Notes under the pieces: model-generated
Told to the model about the DNA's origin: nothing
Databases searched by the model: none
What the model saw: only the letters and a program-made list of their open reading frames with translations
In this document: positions 2,594-43,368 of the stretch, piece after piece
How positions within the stretch are numbered: the stretch's first letter is position 1
Layout of the letters: every line of letters starts with the position of its first letter
Assembly: GCA_964372405.1 (NCBI GenBank)
Contig: CAYJQM010000001.1
Location: 1-44,763, forward strand
Reading direction: 5' to 3'
Length of the DNA stretch: 44,763 nt
DNA from: an uncultured archaeon
GTDB taxonomy: Archaea; Aenigmatarchaeota; Aenigmatarchaeia; Aenigmatarchaeales; JACQIB01
Position numbers and translations under genes: made by a program

Positions 2594-3675
2594 TTAATCT
2601 CCTTTTTACAAAGATCACTCAAAACTTTCTGAGCCATCAATCCAGCGTTTTTCCAGCTTAACTGCGATGCACGTTCCAATGAAAGCTCCGCATACCTTTT
2701 ACGCAACTTCTCATCATCAACTAATTTTTCTATTGCTTCGGATGTATGTTCTACATCAGGATATGTTAAGATGCCATACTTTCCAACAACCTCAGGCATA
2801 GTTGTAACATTTGATGCAATCACAGGAACGCCGCAAGCCATGGCTTCTACAATCGGCAATCCGAAACCTTCGGCAAGTGTTGGATAAACAAAAATATCCA
2901 AAGAGTTTATGAATTCGACCATTTTGCTGTCCGGTAAAGGCGACTGGAAGTATGTGTTTGGTATGTTCATTGACCGGAATATTTCAGTATTCCTGCCGCT
3001 GCCCACCATGTGCAGTTCTATGTCTGAACGCTTCTTTGACAATTGTGCAAAGCTTTTTACAACTAGTTCTGCGTTCTTCCTTCCATCAAAGCCACCGAAG
3101 TAACCAATTTTTACTTTTCCGTTTGGTTCATGTTTAATGGGTCTGTAGACACCTTGATCTACACCACAATAAATAACTTTTACTTGTTCGTCTCTAAGGT
3201 TTGTAGAATTTAGTATGTCTTGTCGTGCTGTGTTGCTAAGTGCTATCAACACATCGGAATTCTTTGCAAGTTTAAAGCAGCGCTTTATCCATGCATCCGC
3301 TATGCGATCTTGCAAAGTCATGTTATTGTTTTTCATCCATGGTACTGCATCCAAGACCGAAACAGCTCTCGGAGTTTTCTTTGCTGCCGCAAGCGCTGCA
3401 CCAGTTGTTATGTAGTCAGAAAAGTAAACGTCAGCTGTGGCATTGCGCATATGTTTGTATAGAGAAAAATGATAGGCCATCCAGCTAAATTTTGGTGATG
3501 GTATGGTTTTAATCCAGCTTTCTTCAGGTTTGTAATCATCTCTTACCAAAAGTGTTACGTCTTCACCAAGCCTAAAGAGCTCGCGGCTGATGTTGTAAAT
3601 ATACTTGCTTATGCCACGGCTTGTTCCAATAACACCGCTTTGCGGGCATGTGTGAGCAGCTATCAATATTTTCAT
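2590..3675 (-). CDS. family 1/4 (GT-B) glycosyltransferase
   Basis: C-terminal ..YPTLAEGFGLPIVEAMACGVPVIASN.. is the EX7E-type GT4 signature. The start ATG overlaps the micro-ORF stop as ATGA. Confidence 0.8.
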   Translation of the reverse strand: MKILIAAHTCPQSGVIGTSRGISKYIYNISRELFRLGEDVTLLVRDDYKPEESWIKTIPSPKFSWMAYHFSLYKHMRNATADVYFSDYITTGAALAAAKKTPRAVSVLDAVPWMKNNNMTLQDRIADAWIKRCFKLAKNSDVLIALSNTARQDILNSTNLRDEQVKVIYCGVDQGVYRPIKHEPNGKVKIGYFGGFDGRKNAELVVKSFAQLSKKRSDIELHMVGSGRNTEIFRSMNIPNTYFQSPLPDSKMVEFINSLDIFVYPTLAEGFGLPIVEAMACGVPVIASNVTTMPEVVGKYGILTYPDVEHTSEAIEKLVDDEKLRKRYAELSLERASQLSWKNAGLMAQKVLSDLCKKEIK

Positions 3676-3740
3676 TTTTGCTCACCAATTTTAAGTGCAA
3701 AAGTGTGTTGATGATTCAATTTCATAAAGGTCAACTTCAT
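3672..3740 (-). CDS. 22-codon micro-ORF (MKLTFMKLNHQHTFALKIGEQK), overlapped as ATGA at both ends with the flanking genes
   Basis: It has its own GGTGA SD 7 nt upstream of the ATG (3738-3740). Stop TGA is at 3672-3674. The first 15 codons are nucleotide-identical to the micro-ORF at 39748-39807. It is below the ORF-track length cutoff. Translation is not demonstrated. Confidence 0.35.
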   Translation of the reverse strand: MKLTFMKLNHQHTFALKIGEQK

Positions 3741-3767
3741 TTTTGCTCACCAATTTGGGGTGCGAAA
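3672..3767 (-). repeat. SD/start-codon cassette, copy A: two direct copies of AAATTGGTGAGCAAAAATGA 66 nt apart, flanking a 38-46 nt unique segment
   Basis: Manual alignment to 39720-39817 (reverse complement) gives a 61-nt identical core (3696-3756). The downstream module differs by one substitution and one 1-nt indel. A TTTCGCA match lies upstream. Confidence 0.9.
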
Positions 3768-4864
3768 TTAACGTTTTTTAAGAAAATTTTAATTTCCTCG
3801 ACTACCTTTTTGGTTGCATGTGCATCCTTAAGCTTCCGCTTCTTTAGTTTGCCATGTTTCACTGTTCCTATCTTAGAAAGTATTTCACTGCTATTACACC
3901 CGGTTACAAAGACGTTGTAATTGCTTAGATTTCCATACTGAAGAAAATTGTTTGTAACTATACACGGCTTTCCGAGTGCTGCACATTCCTCTTCAACGCC
4001 GTTGCTATCTGTTATAACACATGAGCTGGCTTTCATTAAATGTATATAGTCTACATAGTTCAATTTTTCTATAATTTTAGTATTTTCTAACCGTAAGTTC
4101 ATTTTTGAAAGCATCATCTTTATCGCCGGATTTGGAGAATAGATAACAGGCAGTGGGGAATTTTCCATTGCTGTTATCAGTTCCTTGAGATTATTTTTAT
4201 TTTTTACTCTTACAGAATTTGCTAAAACGTATTTACCTTTTGGCAAATCTACAGCAGATTTAATTGAAAGTGCTAGTTTTGTTGTTTCTACAACTGGGTT
4301 ACCGATGCAGACTATCTTGCCCTTCACGTCATTCAGGTTATGTTCAAGTTCTGGAGACCTTATGAATATCAGATCTGCTGCACTTTCTCCAACTTTGTAT
4401 CCAAAATCCAGCAAATTGTTTTCGCCTGTCCTCAAACCTGCTTCGTAATCGATAAGCACTGGAGTTTTCTTCAATGCCTGTGCAGCACGAACTGTAATGC
4501 CAACAGTCAATGTGTTACCCAAGTAAATTATCGGACCACCAGTATTTGCAAAGATCGTCTTTAATGAATTTATTGCTTTAAGTCCCCACACCAAAGATAT
4601 TGCAGCTCCCGAAATGCTGTAAGGTCCCAACATTTTCAGCTGTACTATTTTGTGCGAGGATAGTTTAGACCACTTCTCTCTTGGGGATTTGCGTAACTTG
4701 AAGTCTGGTTTTTGGAGTTTCAACAGCTCTACAATATCGCTTGTATCCTGTTGGTTTGTGTCAATTGTTAAGAAATTTATTTTCTGTCTTCGAAGCTCTT
4801 TAATTAGTGATGTAAATTTAATCAGTTCGCCGCGTGTTCCGTAAACTAATGTCAACATATTCAT
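3737..4864 (-). CDS. UDP-N-acetylglucosamine 2-epimerase-like (WecB family) protein
   Basis: N-terminal LTLVYGTRGELIK and C-terminal ..VITDSNGVEEECAALGKPCIV.. resemble the WecB GTRPE.IK and DSGG.QEEA..LG.P motifs. The last codons (..IGEQK*) are supplied by the repeat cassette. ATG at 4864 is preferred over TTG at 4870. Confidence 0.65.
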   Translation of the reverse strand: MNMLTLVYGTRGELIKFTSLIKELRRQKINFLTIDTNQQDTSDIVELLKLQKPDFKLRKSPREKWSKLSSHKIVQLKMLGPYSISGAAISLVWGLKAINSLKTIFANTGGPIIYLGNTLTVGITVRAAQALKKTPVLIDYEAGLRTGENNLLDFGYKVGESAADLIFIRSPELEHNLNDVKGKIVCIGNPVVETTKLALSIKSAVDLPKGKYVLANSVRVKNKNNLKELITAMENSPLPVIYSPNPAIKMMLSKMNLRLENTKIIEKLNYVDYIHLMKASSCVITDSNGVEEECAALGKPCIVTNNFLQYGNLSNYNVFVTGCNSSEILSKIGTVKHGKLKKRKLKDAHATKKVVEEIKIFLKNVNFAPQIGEQK

Positions 4865-25089: not shown

Positions 25090-25180
25090 GGTTATGTTGT
25101 ATAAGCGAAAGCTTTAAATAATAGTTAGTATGTATCATATGTAAACTTTACATGATGTAAACGCTAAATGTGAATTGTAT

Positions 25181-25243
25181 GCAAGTGAAGTTGACTGATG
25201 TCAATACACTTGCAAAATAAAACTTGGTGAGTATTTTGCAAGT
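25181..25243 (+). promoter_or_regulatory. two mutually exclusive hairpins around the start region of ORF 25224-25613
   Basis: GCAAGTG (25181-25187) pairs with CACTTGC (25207-25213). ACTTGCAAAATA (25208-25219) pairs with TATTTTGCAAGT (25232-25243) as a perfect 12-bp stem. That stem's 12-nt loop AAACTTGGTGAG holds the GGTGA SD and the TTG/GTG starts. The two stems share CACTTGC. Confidence 0.45.
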
Positions 25244-25684: not shown

Positions 25685-25728
25685 AAGCAGTTTTCGACGG
25701 TGATTTGATTATGCCAATCTTTAGTGCG

Positions 25729-28008
25729 ATGCCAAAGGAAATAAAGGAAGTTAAGATGAAAGTCGGGGAACTTACAGGAAGGGAAGACTTTGGTCGCGGG
25801 TTGGCAAGAATCGATTCTAATACAATGAAAACACTTGGTGCGAAGGAAGGAGATGTCATAGAGATTGAAGGCAAGAGAAAAAGTTCTGCTATTGCAATCC
25901 GTTCCTATCCTGCTGATGTTGGCTTGAATGTAATAAGGATTGACGGTTTGGTCAGAAAGAACTGCGGAACAAGCATAGGCGAATCTGTTACAATAAGAAA
26001 GGCGGATGTAAAGGAAGCGAAGAAAATTGTTCTTGCTCCGGCAGAGAAAGGTTTGATTTTACATTTCTCGCCAAACTTGCTTAAGCAAAACATTTACATG
26101 AGACCTATGGTTAAAGGCGACATTATAATTGCAAATCCAGTTTTCAGGACAAGGGGACGCGGTTCAGGCGATATGTTTGAGCAAATGTTTGGAATTTCCA
26201 TGGAAGAAGTTTTCTTACCGATGGGAACCGAGACAAGATTAGCTGTTGTTAAGACTTCACCAGAGTCGGTTGTTCAGATTACCGACATGACTGAAGTCGA
26301 GCTTCTACCAGAAGCTGTTGACATGGAAGAATCTAAGGCACCGTCAGTTACATATGAAGACATAGGCGGTTTGACGCAGATTGTTCCTAAAGTTAGAGAA
26401 ATGATTGAACTCCCATTGAGACATCCAGAAATCTTTGAGCGTTTAGGAGTAGAACCACCGAAAGGAGTTTTGCTTTACGGGCCTCCAGGTACAGGAAAGA
26501 CTTTGCTGGCTAAAGCAGTTGCTAATGAATCGGGCGCGCACTTTATTTCAATTGCAGGCCCAGAGATTGTTAGCAAATGGTATGGCGGTTCAGAAGAAAA
26601 CTTAAGAAAAATTTTCGAAGAGGCAGAGAAGAACGCACCAACAATCATTTTCTTTGATGAAGTTGATGCCATCGCACCAAAGCGTGAGGAGGTAACTGGT
26701 GAAGTTGAGCGTAGAATGGTTTCTCAACTTTTGAGTCTAATGGACGGGTTAAAGTCCAGAGGTAAGGTTATTGTTATTGCAGCAACAAATAGACCAAATG
26801 CAATCGATCCGGCTTTACGTAGAGGTGGAAGGTTTGACAGGGAACTAGAAGTTCCAGTTCCTGATAAAGCTGGAAGAAAAGAAATATTCCAGATTCACAC
26901 AAGAGGTATGCCTTTGGAAACCGATGTAAATCTTGATAGATTATCTGAAGTAACTTATGGTTACGTAGGTGCAGACTTGTCAGGACTGTGCAAGGAGGCT
27001 GCCATGTCGGCTTTGCGTAGAGTGTTACCAGAAATTTCTGCTTTGAAAGAAGGTGAACCGATACCTAAGGAGGTAATAGAAAAACTGCAGATAACTAAAG
27101 ACGATTTTGATTACGCGTTGAAAATGGTGCAGCCATCTGCGATGAGAGAAGTTTTAGTTGAAATACCAAAAGTAAAATGGGAAGATGTTGGAGGCCTTGA
27201 AGATGTTAAGGGTGCTTTGAAGGAAGCTGTTGACTGGCCATTGAAGAATCCTGAATCATTCACTAGAATGGGAATAAAACCAGCGCGTGGCATATTGCTA
27301 TACGGTCCGCCTGGATGTGGAAAGACTTATATTGTCAAGGCTTTGGCAAACGAAGCTGGTGCAAACTTTATTTCAATAAAGGCTGGTGAACTTTACTCAA
27401 AATGGGTCGGTGAGAGCGAACAAAGAATAAGAGAAGTTCTCAGGCGCGCAAAACAAGTAGCACCAACAATAGTGTTCTTTGATGAGATAGATGCCCTTGC
27501 TCCGCGCAGAGGAATGGATGCAGGTAGCAGAGTTTCAGAACAAGTGGTTTCACAATTGCTTACAGAAATGTCTGGCATTGAAGACATGGAAGGAGTTGTT
27601 GTGATTGCAGCAACAAACAGGCCTGATATGATTGATCCTGCTCTGTTGAGACCGGGAAGATTTGATAGAATGGTTTACGTTCCAGCTCCAGATGAAAAGA
27701 CAAGATTTGAAATTTTGAAGACGCACACAAAAGAAATGCCTATTAAAGGCCTAGACATGGAAGCACTTGCAGAAAAGACAGAAGGCTACAGCGGAGCTGA
27801 CATAGAAGCAGTTTGCAGGGAAGCTGGGTTAAATGCATTACGTTCCGATATGAACGCAAGCGAAATAACTAAAAAAGATTTCAATGATGCATTGAACAAA
27901 ATAAAACCAAGCATAACACAGGACATGTTTGCTAAATACCAAAAGGCTGTTGAAGACGTAAAGAAAGCAAAAGTTGATGAGGCAGAAAAAAGTAGATACA
28001 TAGGATAA
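25729..28008 (+). CDS. cdc48: Cdc48/VAT-type AAA+ ATPase (double-psi barrel N domain plus D1 and D2)
   Basis: N domain ..GRGLARIDSNTMKTLGAKEGDVIEIEG.. . Two Walker A motifs are present (GPPGTGKT, GPPGCGKT), along with two DE Walker B motifs and SRH regions. The start is ambiguous (ATG 25711, 25729 or 25756). The protein ends in ..KSRYIG. Confidence 0.9.
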   Translation: MPKEIKEVKMKVGELTGREDFGRGLARIDSNTMKTLGAKEGDVIEIEGKRKSSAIAIRSYPADVGLNVIRIDGLVRKNCGTSIGESVTIRKADVKEAKKIVLAPAEKGLILHFSPNLLKQNIYMRPMVKGDIIIANPVFRTRGRGSGDMFEQMFGISMEEVFLPMGTETRLAVVKTSPESVVQITDMTEVELLPEAVDMEESKAPSVTYEDIGGLTQIVPKVREMIELPLRHPEIFERLGVEPPKGVLLYGPPGTGKTLLAKAVANESGAHFISIAGPEIVSKWYGGSEENLRKIFEEAEKNAPTIIFFDEVDAIAPKREEVTGEVERRMVSQLLSLMDGLKSRGKVIVIAATNRPNAIDPALRRGGRFDRELEVPVPDKAGRKEIFQIHTRGMPLETDVNLDRLSEVTYGYVGADLSGLCKEAAMSALRRVLPEISALKEGEPIPKEVIEKLQITKDDFDYALKMVQPSAMREVLVEIPKVKWEDVGGLEDVKGALKEAVDWPLKNPESFTRMGIKPARGILLYGPPGCGKTYIVKALANEAGANFISIKAGELYSKWVGESEQRIREVLRRAKQVAPTIVFFDEIDALAPRRGMDAGSRVSEQVVSQLLTEMSGIEDMEGVVVIAATNRPDMIDPALLRPGRFDRMVYVPAPDEKTRFEILKTHTKEMPIKGLDMEALAEKTEGYSGADIEAVCREAGLNALRSDMNASEITKKDFNDALNKIKPSITQDMFAKYQKAVEDVKKAKVDEAEKSRYIG

Positions 28009-39341: not shown

Positions 39342-39590
39342 TTACACTTTGTAAACCATATCGCCGTCTCTGCATTCCTTATCGGTTTTTAATGCAACTT
39401 CCTGACCTTTCTTGCCCGTGCTTACAGCTTTGTGCTCCATCTGCATGCTGGCAACAGTCTGTTCAAATGGTTCAGTCTTGCCGCCGATTTCAATTTTATC
39501 GCCCGCTTTTAGCGCAGCATCAAGTTTTACAACCGCAACGCTTACATTTGGGAAGAAATGAATTATCTTGCCGATCAACGTCTTTTCCAT
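39342..39590 (-). CDS. small EF-Tu domain-2-like beta-barrel protein ('translation elongation factor-like protein')
   Basis: MEKTLIGKIIHFFPNVSVAVVKL..LKAGDKIEI.G..TEPFEQTVASMQMEHKAV....KGQEVALKTDKECRDGDMVYKV matches the widespread ~85-aa family as I remember it. Confidence 0.55.
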   Translation of the reverse strand: MEKTLIGKIIHFFPNVSVAVVKLDAALKAGDKIEIGGKTEPFEQTVASMQMEHKAVSTGKKGQEVALKTDKECRDGDMVYKV

Positions 39591-39698
39591 GAGTTCATTA
39601 GGCTTCTAGAGAATAAAAAGGTTTCGTGATGGCGAACGTTTAAATGTTTAACAGGAACATATAAATCATTAAAATATAACTGAGTTGTAAAAAAAGAA

Positions 39699-39715
39699 GT
39701 TTAACTTCGTTAAAC
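39699..39715 (+). promoter_or_regulatory. hairpin GTTTAAC-TTC-GTTAAAC at the predicted 5' end of the cassette B / rSAM transcript
   Basis: Perfect 7-bp stem with a TTC loop closed by C-G. It lies downstream of TATA-like CATATAAATC / AAAATATAAC (about 39657-39680). Confidence 0.4.
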
Positions 39716-39719
39716 ATAT

Positions 39720-39817
39720 TTTCGCATTTAGAAATTGGTGAGCAAAAATGAAGTTGACCTTTATGAAATTGAATCATCAACACACTTTTGCATTTAGAAA
39801 TTGGTGAGCAAAAATGA
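39720..39817 (+). repeat. SD/start-codon cassette, copy B: 28-nt direct repeat GCATTTAGAAATTGGTGAGCAAAAATGA at 39724-39751 and 39790-39817, 66-nt period
   Basis: The two 28-mers are identical. The 61-nt core 39732-39792 is identical to the reverse complement of 3696-3756. Confidence 0.9.
39748..39807 (+). CDS. 19-codon micro-ORF / candidate leader peptide (MKLTFMKLNHQHTFAFRNW)
   Basis: The GGTGA SD lies 7 nt before the ATG. Stop TGA is inside the GGTGAG SD of the radical SAM gene, 6 nt before its ATG. Paralogous to the micro-ORF at 3672-3740. Confidence 0.35.
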   Translation: MKLTFMKLNHQHTFAFRNW

Positions 39818-41334
39818 CCAAGAATAAAGTTTTGTTGTTTGCGCCTAAGCCTTTGGATAATGATGTAAAGTATCCGCCGTATCCTGTGCTTTCCCTTGCC
39901 GGGTTTCTGCTGCAAGAAGGTTATGAAGTTAAAATTGTCCATGCTTCTGTTGATCCAGAATATGCAGACAAAGTTGCATCATTTTTAGATGATAGTGTAG
40001 TTGCTGTTGGCATCACATCTATGACAGGAGAGCAGATTAAAGGCGGCATCGATGTTGCTAAAGCTGTGCGAATAAAAAATCCAAATGTTCCAATTATTTG
40101 GGGCGGTTATCATCCATCGCTTATGCCCAAAGAAACTTGCGCCAGCGAGTTCGTTGACATTGTAGTTAAAGGACAAGGTGAAGTAACTTTCAAAGAACTT
40201 TGTAATACTCTTCGCGATGGAAAGCCGCTTGATGGCGTTCTCGGTATCGTTTTCAAGAAAGATGGTACAATAAAAGAAAATGCAGACAGACCATTTCAAA
40301 ATCTTAACAGTTTTCCAAAGTTACCGTGGCAACTTATTGATATTAGCAAGTATATCAACGAAAACATGGAAATGGGCAAGAAAACTATGGCTTACATAAC
40401 AAGCCAAGGATGTCCTTTCCGATGTACATTTTGTGCAGAACCGCAAGTAACCAAAAGAAGGTGGAGCGGAATAGAAGCAAAAAGAGTTGTTGATGATTTA
40501 GAATTTCTTGTTAAAGATTATGGTGTAGATTCCTTTATTTTCTCGGACAGCAATTTCTTTACAGACAGAGAAAGAACCAGAACATTTTGTCAAGAAATTA
40601 TTGATAGAGGATTAAATATAAAATGGGGCGAAGCCAACGGTCGCACAGAGAATTTGGTCCGATACGATGATGCATTATGGGAGCTTATGGTTAAGGCTGG
40701 ACTTTACAGTATTCTTTGCGGAGCGGAATCAGGTTTACCAGAAGCATTAAAAATAATTGAGAAGGATGCAACTGTTGAAGACACCGTAAATTTTGCAGGA
40801 AAGGCTGCAAAATATGGCGTGCGTGTAACTTTCTCTTTTATGATAGGGCTGCCGGGAATGGATATCAACAAGGAAATGCTTAATACTACAGATCTTATCA
40901 GCAAAATAAACAAGATTCAAAGTGAAAGTAAATACGAATATCACAACAGATTTTTCATTTACTTCTACTGTCCGTATCCGGGAACAAAATTATGGGGAAC
41001 AGCACTTACTTATGGTTTCGAATGTCCCACAGACTTGCAGGGTTGGGGAGACTGGACATTGGATACAAGACATTGCAAATGGATACCGGAAGGCTTGGAC
41101 TTGAAAGCCTTGAGGTATATTGTAAAGTTTGCCGCCAATGCTTTCGAATTGCCACCAAGCACGGCGAAGAAAATAAAATCCAACCCGCTTCTTCACATCG
41201 GTTACAAAGTTGGCTACAAAATGCTGCACACAACAGCTGCTATTAGATTAAAATACAAATTCTTTGAATATCCGATAGAATTCGCTCCGATTAAAAGGTT
41301 TGCAGAGGCATCTTCATTGAGAACCGTGGAATAA
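39814..41334 (+). CDS. B12-binding domain-containing radical SAM protein
   Basis: N-terminal B12-binding domain (..YPVLSLAGFLLQEGYEVKIV..VAVGITSMTG..), the radical SAM motif GCPFRCTFCAEP, and C-terminal ..YCPYPGTKLW.. . Confidence 0.85.
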   Translation: MTKNKVLLFAPKPLDNDVKYPPYPVLSLAGFLLQEGYEVKIVHASVDPEYADKVASFLDDSVVAVGITSMTGEQIKGGIDVAKAVRIKNPNVPIIWGGYHPSLMPKETCASEFVDIVVKGQGEVTFKELCNTLRDGKPLDGVLGIVFKKDGTIKENADRPFQNLNSFPKLPWQLIDISKYINENMEMGKKTMAYITSQGCPFRCTFCAEPQVTKRRWSGIEAKRVVDDLEFLVKDYGVDSFIFSDSNFFTDRERTRTFCQEIIDRGLNIKWGEANGRTENLVRYDDALWELMVKAGLYSILCGAESGLPEALKIIEKDATVEDTVNFAGKAAKYGVRVTFSFMIGLPGMDINKEMLNTTDLISKINKIQSESKYEYHNRFFIYFYCPYPGTKLWGTALTYGFECPTDLQGWGDWTLDTRHCKWIPEGLDLKALRYIVKFAANAFELPPSTAKKIKSNPLLHIGYKVGYKMLHTTAAIRLKYKFFEYPIEFAPIKRFAEASSLRTVE

Positions 41335-41484: not shown

Positions 41485-41534
41485 GAATTTAATGTGTCAA
41501 AAAGGAATATAAGCATATGTATTCTGTAGTTTTT

Positions 41535-41583
41535 ACTTTCCTACGGTAATCGTAGCGTAGGAAAGTGTGTTAACGAAGTTAAC
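41535..41583. terminator. hairpin cluster downstream of pyrG: ACTTTCCTACG..CGTAGGAAAGT (11-bp stem) and GTTAAC-GAA-GTTAAC
   Basis: Stem 41535-41545 pairs with 41556-41566; the loop contains a nested CTACG/CGTAG alternative. The second hairpin is at 41569-41583 with a GAA loop closed by C-G. Confidence 0.5.
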
Positions 41584-41601
41584 TTCATTTTCCTGCAGTA
41601 A

Positions 41602-43368
41602 CTATTTTGTCTCAAGCTTCTGGAAAACAAATGGAGGGGTCGGTAAATCCAATTTTACTGTCTTGCAAGCTTCTGCGAAGCCTAAGAACAGCGGGTTCGG
41701 GTATTTGTAGTTGCTTGTGAATTCTGGGTGAGCTTGTGTTGCAACAGAAAACGGATGGTCCTTCCAAGAAATCATTTCTATCAACATAGTTCCGTCTGCC
41801 GAGTAGTGTACACCGGGGAAAAGCATCCCCTTTTCCTGTAAAGCTCTATGAAAAGATGGATTTACTTCGTATCGATGCCTGTGTCGTTCTAATATTACAA
41901 AGTCTGCAGGAGCTATTTGCCCTAGGCGAAGTTTGTCATAATTCTGTAATTTTTGTTTTTCATATTCGTCAGGTCTTCCAATCTTTTCGTAAAGTGCGTG
42001 GACAAAAGAACTTTTGTCAATTATGCAAGCAAAGTCTCCAAGTCGTTGGGTTCCGATGAAGCCTTGTGTTTGTCTCAACTTTTCCTGCTCGGGCAACCTG
42101 CAAATGACATGAGCATTTCTATCTGGGCAATCCTTATCTTCGTCCATTTCTTCGCTGTGTGCATTTACTACGCCGCATGCATTTCTAGCAAATTCAACTA
42201 CACCCATTTGCAATCCTAAGCATAATCCTAAGAATGGCACACCGTTTTCTCTCGCATATTTTATTGCGGTAATTTTACCTTCCAAGCCGCGTGACCCGTA
42301 GCCACCAGGAACAATTATTCCTGCCATCTTTTTCAAAACTGATTGATCCTTTTCAATTGTTACTGCATCGATTCTGTGTATTTCCGGTAAGAATCCTATT
42401 TCAATACAAGCTCTTGTCAAAGCCTCTTCGACAGAAATATAGGCATCCCTATGAATTCCTTTTCCTTCTGCGACATATTTGCCAATGTAGGCAATTGGAA
42501 TTCTCTCAACGGTTGCGTTCAACTTTTGCAAGTAGGAATCGTAATTATTCCAATTAACTGTGCTAACGGGAATTTTCAATGCGTTAACAAGTTTTTGTCC
42601 TAGTAGTTGCTGTTCGAATACAACAGGCATTTCGTAAACAAATGCTAAGTCTGGGTCTGCAATAATGTTTTCTTTAGGAACGTTGCAGTATAAACTTAAT
42701 TTCTCCTTTCTTTTTGTATCGAGCATCATTTCATGCGGAGCTCTTACTACTACAAAGTCTGCTGCAAGCCCAAACTCGTTCAATGCGCGCACAGCGTTTT
42801 GTGCGATTTTGGTTTTCGGTTCGCCAACGCTTTCATTGAAAACCAATGGAACTAAAACAACAATAACGGCTTCTTCCTTGTCCTTGTGAACCATACTTTC
42901 AATTGCTCGCAAGAAAATTATCGATTCGTCATCTCCTATTGTTCCGCCGACTTCTACAACTGCCACATCTGCGTCTTTTGCAGCTTCTCTTATGAAAATT
43001 TTATGTTCGTCTCTTATGTGAGGTATTACCTGTATGCTTTTACCCAAGAATTGCCCTTTCCTACCCTTCTCAATTGCAGAAAGGAAAACTTTTCCTGAAG
43101 TTATGTTTTGGATTTTTTGGCATGGTTGTGCAGTAAATCTTTCGTAATGACCAAAGTCTTGGTCAATTTCTCCACCATCTTCTGTTACAAACACTTCCCC
43201 ATGTTCGTTCGGGTTCATGTCGCCTGCACCCAAATTAAAATAGGGATCAATTTTAATCGGTTTTACTTTTAGTCCATAATTTTGCAGAAGTTTTGTGATC
43301 GATGCTACCAGCACTCCTTTTCCGAGTCCTGAGTATCCTCCACCAAGAACAAATATGTATTTGGGCAT
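41602..43368 (-). CDS. pyrG: CTP synthase
   Basis: MPKYIFVLGGGYSGLGKG.. is the synthetase domain. The glutaminase domain has ..GLCLGLQ.. (catalytic Cys) and ..HRHRYEVN.. . ATG at 43368 is preferred over TTG at 43374. Confidence 0.9.
   Translation of the reverse strand: MPKYIFVLGGGYSGLGKGVLVASITKLLQNYGLKVKPIKIDPYFNLGAGDMNPNEHGEVFVTEDGGEIDQDFGHYERFTAQPCQKIQNITSGKVFLSAIEKGRKGQFLGKSIQVIPHIRDEHKIFIREAAKDADVAVVEVGGTIGDDESIIFLRAIESMVHKDKEEAVIVVLVPLVFNESVGEPKTKIAQNAVRALNEFGLAADFVVVRAPHEMMLDTKRKEKLSLYCNVPKENIIADPDLAFVYEMPVVFEQQLLGQKLVNALKIPVSTVNWNNYDSYLQKLNATVERIPIAYIGKYVAEGKGIHRDAYISVEEALTRACIEIGFLPEIHRIDAVTIEKDQSVLKKMAGIIVPGGYGSRGLEGKITAIKYARENGVPFLGLCLGLQMGVVEFARNACGVVNAHSEEMDEDKDCPDRNAHVICRLPEQEKLRQTQGFIGTQRLGDFACIIDKSSFVHALYEKIGRPDEYEKQKLQNYDKLRLGQIAPADFVILERHRHRYEVNPSFHRALQEKGMLFPGVHYSADGTMLIEMISWKDHPFSVATQAHPEFTSNYKYPNPLFLGFAEACKTVKLDLPTPPFVFQKLETK

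What the first reader, a model, noticed from the sequence alone, without database searches (positions are those of the whole stretch)
39699..39817. Cassette copy B forms the leader of the B12-radical SAM gene, with alternative helices that can each sequester one of two start codons
Copy B sits directly upstream of the only intact B12-binding radical SAM gene. The micro-ORF (39748-39807, MKLTFMKLNHQHTFAFRNW) shares its first 15 codons, nucleotide for nucleotide, with copy A. A 1-nt indel changes its C-terminus and places its TGA inside the GGTGAG SD of the rSAM gene (ATG 39814). The 9-mer CACTTTTGC (39783-39791) can pair 8/9 with GCAAAAATG at 39742-39750, the micro-ORF start; GTTGA 39753-39757 pairing with TCAAC 39777-39781 extends that helix. 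The same 9-mer can instead pair with the second GCAAAAATG at 39808-39816, the rSAM start; the 16-nt loop of that helix contains the SD and the micro-ORF stop. Mutually exclusive helices over two start codons, with a short ORF running through the shared strand, is the logic of ribosome-mediated translational attenuators. These are barely characterised in archaea. The same pairings exist in copy A because the sequence is identical. A C-GAA-G type hairpin (39699-39715) lies at the predicted 5' end, downstream of TATA-like boxes. The shared part is 100 percent identical, so there is no synonymous-site evidence for or against selection on the peptide. A RiPP-precursor role next to the rSAM is conceivable but unlikely for a 19-aa peptide that also occurs in a glycosylation operon.
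Basis: inference. Interest (0 to 1): 0.75.

Follow-up and report, generated by a model that had tools for sequence, protein, structure and literature searches.

The report
Hairpin insertion element at gene starts
The "leader" of the radical SAM gene is two tandem copies of a small hairpin repeat that, in a group of DPANN archaea, sits at the start codons of unrelated genes, repeats the start region in both orientations and carries its own ribosome-binding site, so it is not a regulator built for this one gene.

Summary
The sequence facts hold: the micro-ORF (39748-39807), the twin GCAAAAATG and the 9-mer pairings are all there.

The two GCAAAAATG exist because the region is a tandem repeat of one unit. 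A covariance model finds 15 units at 10 loci: five in this window (39687-39728, 39740-39794, 3748-3694, 25177-25218, 41596-41556) and ten in five other contigs.

Where the downstream gene is visible (nine loci), eight abut its start codon on the same strand. The genes are unrelated: rSAM, GT4, GARS-like, TFS, DEAD helicase, PIN, DUF3467 and one unknown.

Each locus reads: target copy, conserved core hairpin, inverted target copy, linker with GGTGA, target copy with the real start. Three empty sites in relatives show gain or loss.

The hairpin covaries (87% of cells paired against 35-47% when slid). Both alternative pairings are locus-specific (permutation p about 1e-4).

A dedicated, peptide-sensing rSAM attenuator is not supported:
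- the micro-ORF peptide is not conserved;
- a 72% rSAM orthologue lacks the element at its start;
- in copy B the start-sequestering helix is predicted at probability 0.04.

The origin of the inverted copy and the function are unresolved.

The parts
39687..39728 (+). Unit B_u0, a degenerate short unit. Inner hairpin GTTTAAC(39699-39705)-TTC-GTTAAAC(39709-39715). X' is TTTTCGC at 39719-39725. It has AAG where other units have ATG.
   Evidence: CM R1 42 bits and R2 37.9 bits. It is homologous to the L002 short unit with a compensatory G-C to U-A change.
39726..39747 (+). Linker of B_u0, carrying GGTGAG (39737-39742), followed by a copy of the start-region repeat X (GCAAAA, 39742-39747).
   Evidence: Direct repeat of 39 nt with a 66-nt period; exact repeats.
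39740..39794 (+). Unit B_u1, a long-loop (alpha) unit. X_up is GCAAAA (39742-39747) and the ATG is at 39748-39750. The inner arms are GTTGA (39753-39757) and TCAAC (39777-39781). ACAC is at 39782-39785 and X' (TTTTGC) at 39786-39791.
   Evidence: CM R1 50.4 bits and R2 64.3 bits. This hairpin is the MFE structure of the 91-nt and 89-nt sub-segments. In the full 152-nt leader X' pairs with an upstream partner at P = 0.69, though there the MFE partner is the u0 flank rather than 39742-39747.
39748..39807 (+). Micro-ORF of 19 aa. Its stop TGA (39805-39807) lies inside the SD of the rSAM gene.
   Evidence: Translation. The peptide is not conserved in L003 or in other units.
39792..39816 (+). Linker of B_u1, carrying GGTGAG (39803-39808), followed by X_down and the real start (GCAAAAATG, 39808-39816).
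   Evidence: The predicted probability that X' pairs downstream is 0.04.
39814..41334 (+). B12-binding radical SAM gene (506 aa), the gene downstream of copy B.
   Evidence: Pfam PF02310 and PF04055. Orthologues at 92% (L003) and 72% (L004/L005) identity.
3694..3748 (-). Unit A_u1, whose core is identical to that of B_u1.
   Evidence: CM R1 51.2 bits and R2 64.9 bits; alignment.
3741..3773 (-). A partial upstream unit (the 3' half of a short unit plus its linker). It now encodes the last residues of the epimerase, which stops at 3739-3737.
   Evidence: Sequence similarity to 39709-39747. The Pfam epimerase domain ends at residue 360 of 377.
3672..3740 (-). Copy A micro-ORF (22 aa). Its stop overlaps the GT4 start as ATGA (GT4 ATG at 3675-3673).
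   Evidence: ORF table.
25177..25243 (+). Copy C, a single short unit. Target copy TGCAAGT at 25180-25186, with the original ATG at 25179-25181. Core 25187-25209. Inverted copy ACTTGCA at 25208-25214. Linker with GGTGAG. Second target copy TGCAAGT at 25237-25243, where the gene now starts with TTG at 25236.
   Evidence: nhmmer; CM 43.4 bits. Empty site in L137...ctaaATGCAAGTTAGG. An 11-12 bp X':X_down complement.
41530..41613 (-). Copy D, a single short unit lying after the pyrG stop. CM match at 41596-41556. An inverted target copy forms an 11-bp helix with the downstream target copy. The direct target repeat is about 16 nt.
   Evidence: Empty site in L004 (GCAGGAAAAT|AAAAACT) and a core-less remnant in L003.

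Best explanation
Copy B is two tandem members of a dispersed family of hairpin repeats, each roughly 45-80 nt. They occur in Aenigmatarchaeota-like DPANN archaea.

Shown:
- Every unit has a conserved core, GAAGTT(N)AAC-loop-GTT(N)AA(C/T)-ACA(C/T).
- To the left of the core lies a copy of the local sequence (X_up). Immediately to the right lies an inverted copy of that sequence (X').
- Next comes a linker that carries GGTGA(R), a good Shine-Dalgarno sequence.
- Last comes a second direct copy of the local sequence (X_down), which holds or abuts the real start codon.
- At three loci a related genome shows the empty site, and there the extra DNA sits just after ...AAAAT or ...AAGT. This is often between the T and G of a start codon.
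- The ATG of the micro-ORF is therefore a junction product.

Inferred:
- The units spread by duplicative insertion or by template switching between copies, aimed at A-rich start contexts, followed by gene conversion between copies.
- A unit is tolerated at a gene start because it rebuilds the start and supplies an SD.
- In the mRNA, X' can close the long hairpin with X_up, which leaves the real start free. Alternatively it can pair with X_down in a hairpin that holds the SD in its loop and buries the start.
- A ribosome reading the micro-ORF would open the long hairpin and terminate within about 20 nt of the real start. The most likely effect is therefore a modulation or coupling of translation initiation.
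- For copy B the predicted state is 'start free'.

The element is not a dedicated sensor for the rSAM gene.
For: Tandem structure.

Family: CM R1/R2 separate 15 units (at least 34 bits) from background (at most 18 bits) in about 176 kb of related DNA. Three of these units were found without being in the training set: L002 2032-1996, L050 2363-2309 and the L138 pair.

Location: eight of the nine loci where the downstream gene is visible abut a start codon on the same strand, and the genes are unrelated.

Hairpin covariation: 87.4% of cells paired against 35-47% when slid. Eleven of 15 pairs have changes on both sides, and 0 of 500 shuffles reach the observed score.

Locus-specific X_up:X' complementarity: p = 1.5e-4. 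Direct X_up/X_down repeat: 0 of 5000 permutations. X':X_down complement: own mean 8.3 nt against 5.2 for other units, p = 1e-4.

Duplicated coding sequence: ATGGAATTTTGCGAAAA occurs twice (TFS) and ATGAAGTTCGAAG twice (DEAD helicase) in L050.

Empty sites: L004 for copy D, L137 for copy C, and the window for the L138 locus.

Concerted evolution: units within one genome share 3' ends that differ between genomes, as seen in window versus L003.

The repeat is seen in several independent assemblies, and a Logan unitig breaks exactly at it.
Against: - Only 15 units are known and no complete genome was available.
- No transposase, integrase or reverse transcriptase was seen in the Pfam scans, which covered 30 of the window's 37 larger ORFs. 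The means of spread is unknown.
- The inverted target copy lies between two conserved parts of the unit, which simple cut-and-paste with target duplication does not explain.
- A conserved A.C mismatch is hard to reconcile with pure fold-back synthesis.
- The antisense strand folds more stably: summed -145.6 against -120.3 kcal/mol. The structure could therefore matter in DNA or in an antisense RNA.
- The transcription start is unknown. If transcripts start inside the first unit, part of the proposed RNA structure would not exist.
- Copy D is not at a gene start.
- Closer relatives (L136, L137) have no unit in 21 kb.
Confidence: 0.7

Rival explanations
1. One reading: a dedicated ribosome-mediated translational attenuator of the B12-radical SAM gene. 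Translation or stalling on the 19-aa micro-ORF would decide which of two helices forms and so set rSAM translation.
For: The two mutually exclusive pairings exist. The micro-ORF crosses the shared strand and stops 7 nt before the rSAM ATG. The 92% orthologue keeps a two-unit leader with compensatory changes in both helices.
Against: The same unit lies in front of unrelated genes. The 72% orthologue has no unit at its start. The peptide, its length, its frame and its stop all vary, and substitutions are mostly non-synonymous. P(X':rSAM start) is 0.04. Fold z-scores are -0.7 to -0.9. No conserved stalling motif or regulatory codons were found.
Confidence: 0.08
2. A host-selected cis-regulatory RNA family. 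A protein or RNA factor binds the conserved core hairpin and its AA/A internal loop, stabilises the long hairpin, and so frees the start codons of many genes at once (a regulon wired by a portable module).
For: The core sequence and the loop subtypes are conserved between distant contigs; for example, the alpha and beta loops occur in L003, L050, L018 and L138. Stems covary. Orientation is consistently that of the downstream gene. X':X_down helices of 10-12 bp bury the start in copies C, D, L018 and L3_u0.
Against: The associated genes share no function. Units are gained and lost between close relatives. There is no Rfam match, no candidate factor, and the strand is ambiguous.
Confidence: 0.12
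3. A DNA-level element whose hairpin acts in single-stranded or cruciform DNA, for example as a recombination or replication-associated site. The effects on mRNA would then be incidental.
For: The left part is a near-perfect palindrome that includes the target copy. The antisense strand folds better. The direct-inverted-direct order of target copies is what template switching at inverted repeats produces (established for DUP-TRP/INV-DUP rearrangements; my own knowledge).
Against: Strand bias toward the downstream gene and the carried SD point to constraints at the RNA or translation level. The attC, CRISPR and REP definitions are not met (see membership tests). No recombinase was found nearby.
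Confidence: 0.08
4. A neutral local tandem duplication by replication slippage in an AT-rich leader, with no family and no function.
For: Copies A and B are internal tandem repeats. Fold energies are unexceptional.
Against: Homologous units occur at 10 loci in 6 contigs with different flanks. Stems covary. Inverted target copies are present.
Confidence: 0.02

Closest known systems
Small non-autonomous prokaryotic repeats: MITEs, Correia elements of Neisseria, Rickettsia palindromic elements (RPE), REP/BIME
   Same: Short, multi-copy and hairpin-forming. Insertion-polymorphic between relatives and flanked by direct target repeats. Able to alter expression of the neighbouring gene. RPEs likewise sit inside genes without destroying them (my own knowledge; general review PMC3184786 listed).
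   Different: There are no terminal inverted repeats; the inverted repeat is internal. The direct repeat varies in length (7-17 nt). An inverted copy of the target lies inside the unit. The unit carries an SD and lands at start codons. No parent transposase was found. There is no GTAG/RAYT signature.
Ribosome-mediated translational attenuators (ermC, cat and cmlA leaders)
   Same: A short leader ORF and mutually exclusive helices, one of which covers the SD or start of the downstream gene.
   Different: No conserved leader peptide or stalling motif. The element is not tied to one gene family. It is gained and lost like a repeat. In copy B the sequestering helix is predicted to be almost unpopulated.
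DUP-TRP/INV-DUP and quasi-palindrome template-switch rearrangements
   Same: The same order of segments (direct, inverted, direct) around a short inverted repeat; variable junction positions; microhomology at junctions (AAAAT/G).
   Different: Here the pattern recurs at many loci with one conserved inserted core and linker. The scale is tens of nucleotides. A conserved mismatch is kept within the palindrome.
Integron attC sites
   Same: An imperfect hairpin with two helices separated by unpaired bases and a variable loop. It lies just upstream of ORFs. GTT/AAC triplets are present.
   Different: The polarity is 5'-GTT...AAC-3', not 5'-...AAC...GTT...-3'. The conserved triplets are in the inner helix, not the outer one. 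The flanking genes are syntenic core genes. No IntI was found.

Membership tests
Ribosome-mediated translational attenuator | Leader ORF with its own start (and SD) upstream of the regulated gene | tested here: met
   The ATG at 39748 is preceded by GGTGAG at 39737-39742, and the ORF encodes 19 aa. However, B_u0 lacks an ATG, and single units C and L2_u0 lack an SD.
Ribosome-mediated translational attenuator | Mutually exclusive helices, one of which occludes the SD or start of the regulated gene | tested here: inconclusive
   The pairings exist and are locus-specific. In copy B, though, P(downstream helix) is 0.04. That helix dominates only in D, L018 and L3_u0.
Ribosome-mediated translational attenuator | Leader peptide or regulatory codons conserved among homologous leaders | tested here: not met
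   MKLTFMKLNHQHTFAF... (window) against MRFTFVKLDSKYIFT... (L003), with about 10 non-synonymous changes to 1 synonymous. The conserved ACACTTT is read in three frames. Lengths range from 11 to 30 aa.
Ribosome-mediated translational attenuator | Leader is inherited together with the regulated gene | tested here: not met
   Present in the 92% orthologue L003 and absent from the start of the 72% orthologue L004/L005. The same unit precedes 7 other gene families.
MITE-like or dispersed repeat element | Multiple dispersed, homologous copies in one genome and in relatives | tested here: met
   Five units at 4 loci in the window and 10 more in 5 other contigs.
MITE-like or dispersed repeat element | Presence/absence polymorphism with direct target repeats | tested here: met
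   Empty sites in L004 (for D), L137 (for C) and the window (for L138). Repeats are 7-17 nt and include duplicated coding sequence.
MITE-like or dispersed repeat element | Terminal inverted repeats matching a parent transposon | tested here: not met
   The inverted repeat is internal (the core stem). The ends are GAAGTT... and ...GGTGA(R). No transposase was found in the Pfam scans of window ORFs.
MITE-like or dispersed repeat element | Fixed target-duplication length set by a transposase | tested here: not met
   Lengths are 7 (C), about 10-13 (L018, L050-2) and 16-17 (D, L050-1).
Integron attC | R'' RYYYAAC at the 5' end and R' GTTRRRY at the 3' end pairing at the base of the hairpin, with an integron integrase nearby | tested here: not met
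   The polarity is reversed (5'-GTT..AAC-3') and the triplets lie in the inner helix. No integrase was found. The neighbouring genes are syntenic.
CRISPR array | Several identical repeats separated by unique spacers | tested here: not met
   There are at most 2-3 repeats per locus, and the 'spacer' is identical in copies A, B and L002. The only Rfam hit is CRISPR-DR40 at E = 1.8.
Known cis-regulatory RNA or riboswitch (Rfam 15) | A match to a curated covariance model | tested here: not met
   No match at gathering score over the whole window. Nothing better than E = 1.8 in 39590-39900.
C/D box sRNA or k-turn motif | C (RUGAUGA) and D (CUGA) boxes, or tandem sheared G.A pairs next to a 3-nt bulge | tested here: not met
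   By inspection of the alignment: the internal loop is AA/A, flanked by U-A and G-C pairs. There is no GA on the 3' strand and no D box.

The most novel reading that the evidence does not exclude
The units could be self-programming, portable translational switches. On insertion at a start codon, the element would copy the local start region in both orientations. That would automatically build a sequestering helix (X':X_down, with the SD in the loop and the start buried) and an anti-sequestering helix (X_up:X', extending a conserved core hairpin). Arbitrary genes would then come under one common control, either ribosome traffic on the junction-created micro-ORF or a factor that binds the conserved core. 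It would be a mobile element that wires genes into a post-transcriptional regulon in archaea.
Probability: 0.2. Interest if true: 0.9.

Novelty: new variant of a known kind. Interest (0 to 1): 0.68.

Why it matters
If the description holds, it adds a class of small archaeal repeats with three unusual properties:
- a preference for translation start sites;
- an element-borne ribosome-binding site;
- a built-in inverted copy of the target.

Each insertion would therefore come with a ready-made pair of alternative helices over the start codon.

That has three consequences:
- It points to a route by which translational control could spread between unrelated genes in DPANN archaea, where post-transcriptional regulation is almost unknown.
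- It poses a mechanistic puzzle: how is the target copied in inverted orientation between two conserved parts of the unit?
- It matters for annotation. These units create false upstream starts and N- or C-terminal extensions, such as the 511-aa call for P0001 and the epimerase tail in the window.

For the rSAM gene itself, the practical message is that the leader says nothing specific about B12 or rSAM biology.

Tried and rejected
- Rfam at gathering score over the window, and at E up to 10 over 39590-39900: nothing meaningful.
- tRNA/tmRNA scan: none.
- Protein search with the concatenated micro-ORF peptides, hoping to find fused N-termini: no candidate.
- First metagenome pattern (CACACTTTTGCAN{4,6}AATTGGTGA): 0 hits.
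- Second metagenome pattern: 49 loci, of which only L018 and L050 are genuine. The rest lack the stems.
- Viral contig scan: 81 loci, none genuine. The best, L100, lies in a coding region and has no stems.
- attC, CRISPR, C/D-box, k-turn and BHB-intron readings were considered and rejected on the sequence layout (see membership tests).
- A RiPP-precursor reading of the micro-ORF was rejected: the peptide is not conserved and the unit precedes unrelated genes.
- Strand assignment from G.U pairs is ambiguous. Three units have G.U on the sense strand, but the conserved A.C mismatch becomes G.U on the antisense strand.
- Pfam scans of 30 of the window's 37 larger ORFs found no transposase, integrase or reverse transcriptase.
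- Three literature searches found no description of such an element.
- The promoter/terminator scanner was not used because it models bacterial sigma-70 promoters. The transcription start remains unknown.

Full report
**1. The observation**

- The micro-ORF 39748-39807 gives MKLTFMKLNHQHTFAFRNW*. Its copy A counterpart, 3740-3672 on the minus strand, gives MKLTFMKLNHQHTFALKIGEQK*.
- The two copies are identical apart from one substitution and a 1-nt indel.
- GCAAAAATG lies at 39742-39750 and 39808-39816. The 9-mer CACTTTTGC is at 39783-39791. GTTGA (39753-39757) faces TCAAC (39777-39781).
- The downstream gene (39814-41334) is a B12-binding radical SAM enzyme.

Energies alone are unremarkable, with z-scores of -0.7 to -0.9 against shuffles. 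Rfam and tRNA scans find nothing.

**2. Related sequences**

- A genome scan with the 34-nt core found a third context in another uncultured archaeon MAG (L002). It holds a 51-nt short unit followed by the long unit.
- The 92% rSAM orthologue (L003) keeps a two-unit leader. Its sequence has diverged, yet the pairings are kept: GTTGTAAAA/TTTTACAAC replaces GCAAAA/TTTTGC, and GTTTGC/GCAAAT replaces GTTGA/TCAAC.
- The 72% orthologue (L004/L005) has no unit at its start, only decayed relics 170-250 nt upstream.
- A hand-made profile and then covariance models R1 and R2 found further units:
  - copy C at 25177-25218, in front of a 125-aa ORF;
  - copy D at 41596-41556, after the pyrG stop;
  - a unit in front of a GARS-like gene in L002.
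- A second metagenome scan added L018 (in front of a PIN_9 gene) and two units in L050 (in front of TFS and a DEAD-box helicase).
- Contigs of relatives fetched through CDC48 added a tandem pair in L138, in front of a DUF3467 gene.

In total there are 15 units at 10 loci, scoring at least 34 bits against at most 18 bits for background in about 176 kb. Sources name the relatives Candidatus Aenigmatarchaeota. The window has archaeal markers such as AglB/STT3, NOG1, aCPSF, RadB and CDC48.

**3. Anatomy**

Every locus reads, on the strand of the downstream gene:
- local sequence X_up;
- the core GAAGTT(N)AAC-loop-GTT(N)AA(C/T)-ACA(C/T);
- X', an inverted copy of X;
- a linker with GGTGA(R);
- X_down, a second direct copy of X that holds or abuts the real start.

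X differs from locus to locus: GCAAAA, GTTGTAAAA, TGCAAGT, AGGAAA, CATGAAA, TGCGAAA, GAAGAT. X' follows it each time.

In L050 the direct repeat contains the first 17 nt of the TFS gene and the first 13 nt of the helicase gene. That can only be a duplication of the target.

Loop subtypes recur in different genomes. The long unit looks like a short unit with a nested 15-nt duplication (and my reading of it).

**4. Statistics**

| Test | Result |
|---|---|
| Cells forming standard pairs, long hairpin (15-unit model-fitted alignment) | 87.4%, against 35-47% when partners are slid |
| Pairs with changes on both sides | 11 of 15 |
| Shuffles reaching the observed score | 0 of 500 |
| The same picture on the MAFFT alignment | yes |
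| X_up:X' complementarity, own unit against others | p = 1.5e-4 |
| X_up/X_down direct repeat | 0 of 5000 permutations |
| X':X_down Watson-Crick run, own mean against others | 8.3 against 5.2 nt, p = 1e-4 |

Caveats: the sample is small, several units are close paralogues, and the structure was derived from these same sequences.

**5. Gain and loss**

- Copy D. L004 has the empty site GCAGGAAAAT|AAAAACT. The window has about 16 nt of it on both sides of the insert. L003 keeps a core-less remnant.
- Copy C. L137 has ...ctaaATGCAAGTTAGG. The window has ATGCAAGT[GAAGTT...ACAC TTGCA ...GGTGAGTATTT]TGCAAGTTAGA, and the gene now starts with TTG.
- L138 locus. The window is the empty site, GGTGATAAT|ATGAATGAAG.

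In all three the extra DNA begins with GAAGTT, directly after ...AAAAT or ...AAGT. The ATG of the micro-ORF is therefore AT (or GT) from the target plus G from the unit.

Units within one genome share 3' parts that differ between genomes. The A and B cores are 100% identical, while the orthologous L003 leader differs by roughly a quarter of its positions. This points to recent copying or gene conversion.

At copy A, a partial unit now encodes the last 17 or so residues of the epimerase.

**6. What it does**

Predicted equilibria differ by locus:

| Locus | X' pairs upstream (start free) | X' pairs downstream (start buried) |
|---|---|---|
| B_u1 | 0.69 | 0.04 |
| A | 0.69 | 0.14 |
| C | 0.99 | 0.00 |
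| L050-1 | 0.87 | 0.08 |
| L050-2 | 1.00 | 0.00 |
| D | 0.00 | 1.00 |
| L018 | 0.00 | 1.00 |
| L3_u0 | 0.03 | 0.93 |

Constrained folds agree with this picture.

Micro-ORFs of 11-30 aa start at the junction ATG and stop between about -16 and +39 nt from the real start. Several stop within a few nucleotides of it, either in the TGA of GGTGA or as an ATGA overlap.

The peptides are not conserved, and the conserved nucleotides are read in three frames. Any role of the micro-ORF would therefore lie in the act of translation (unwinding, termination-reinitiation), not in the peptide.

I infer a modest, portable effect on translation initiation. For copy B the predicted effect is "SD and start exposed".

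The antisense strand folds better overall and the transcription start is unknown. A role in DNA or in an antisense RNA is therefore not excluded.

**7. What remains unexplained**

The inverted target copy lies between two conserved parts of the unit. Ordinary transposition does not produce that.

Fold-back synthesis or template switching at the core inverted repeat would give the direct-inverted-direct order and the variable lengths. It would not obviously give the conserved A.C mismatch or the conserved linker.

No enzyme candidate was found in the window. A Cas1 gene with odd 27-nt repeats lies in a relative, but nothing links it to the units.

**8. Verdict**

The alternative-helix logic is real and general. 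A dedicated, peptide-sensing attenuator of the rSAM gene is not supported.
- The entity is best filed as a new variant of small dispersed hairpin repeats, with an unusual start-site preference and a target-derived inverted segment.
- No description of it was found in three literature searches.

Noticed in passing
L003:975-1090 (compare window 39591-39640): A roughly 110-nt insertion that the window lacks. It consists of three consecutive perfect hairpins (GTCGACT-TAG-AGTCGAC, TTCAAC-AGCA-GTTGAA, GAACTGC-TTC-GCAGTTC) and may be another small repeat family.
   Followed up: no
L004:4664-6963: A Cas1 gene (PF01867) is followed by three copies of the 27-nt repeat GTTGCACATTACATGCATGTGAGAAAC, spaced 333 and 811 nt apart and enclosing small ORFs. 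This is not a normal CRISPR array. The window has a radical SAM gene at the corresponding place.
   Followed up: partly
window 3737-3790 (-): The last 17 or so residues of the UDP-GlcNAc 2-epimerase-like protein lie beyond the Pfam domain end. They are encoded by repeat-derived sequence, and the stop is the TGA of the unit's ATGA.
   Followed up: partly
window 39629-39652 and L003:1088-1111: The box GATGGCGAACGTTTAAATGTTTAA is conserved between the divergent 82-aa EF-Tu-domain-2-like gene and the rSAM leader. It is probably a shared archaeal TATA/BRE promoter region.
   Followed up: no
L005:5290-5400: Two decayed units lie 170-250 nt upstream of the 72% rSAM orthologue: ...ACTTCGTTCGCAAATTTTTGCTTTTGAAATTGGTCAGCAAAAAC, and GGAAAAT-CTTCACTTCGTTCG-ATTTTCC. 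Both fall below the model threshold.
   Followed up: partly
window 25705-28008 compared with P0123, P0144, P0158: The CDC48 orthologues of several relatives carry an intein (Intein_splicing and LAGLIDADG domains, about 1250 aa). The window's copy is intein-free.
   Followed up: no
L137:796-4022: A 3.2-kb stretch has no called gene. At least its last 90 or so nucleotides (about 3855-3943) read as the N-terminal coding sequence of the divergent RadB orthologue on the minus strand, so RadB may simply be uncalled there. The rest was not examined.
   Followed up: no
L001:1-30 (window 39788-39817): The Logan unitig carrying the identical rSAM gene starts 26 nt upstream of the ATG, exactly inside the repeat. 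This is what a sequence present more than once in that sample would produce.
   Followed up: partly
L004:1877-2131 compared with window 39342-39590: The 82-84-aa EF-Tu-domain-2-like gene lies upstream of the rSAM gene in the window and in L003. In L004 it lies downstream of it, a local rearrangement next to the repeat-bearing intergenic region.
   Followed up: no
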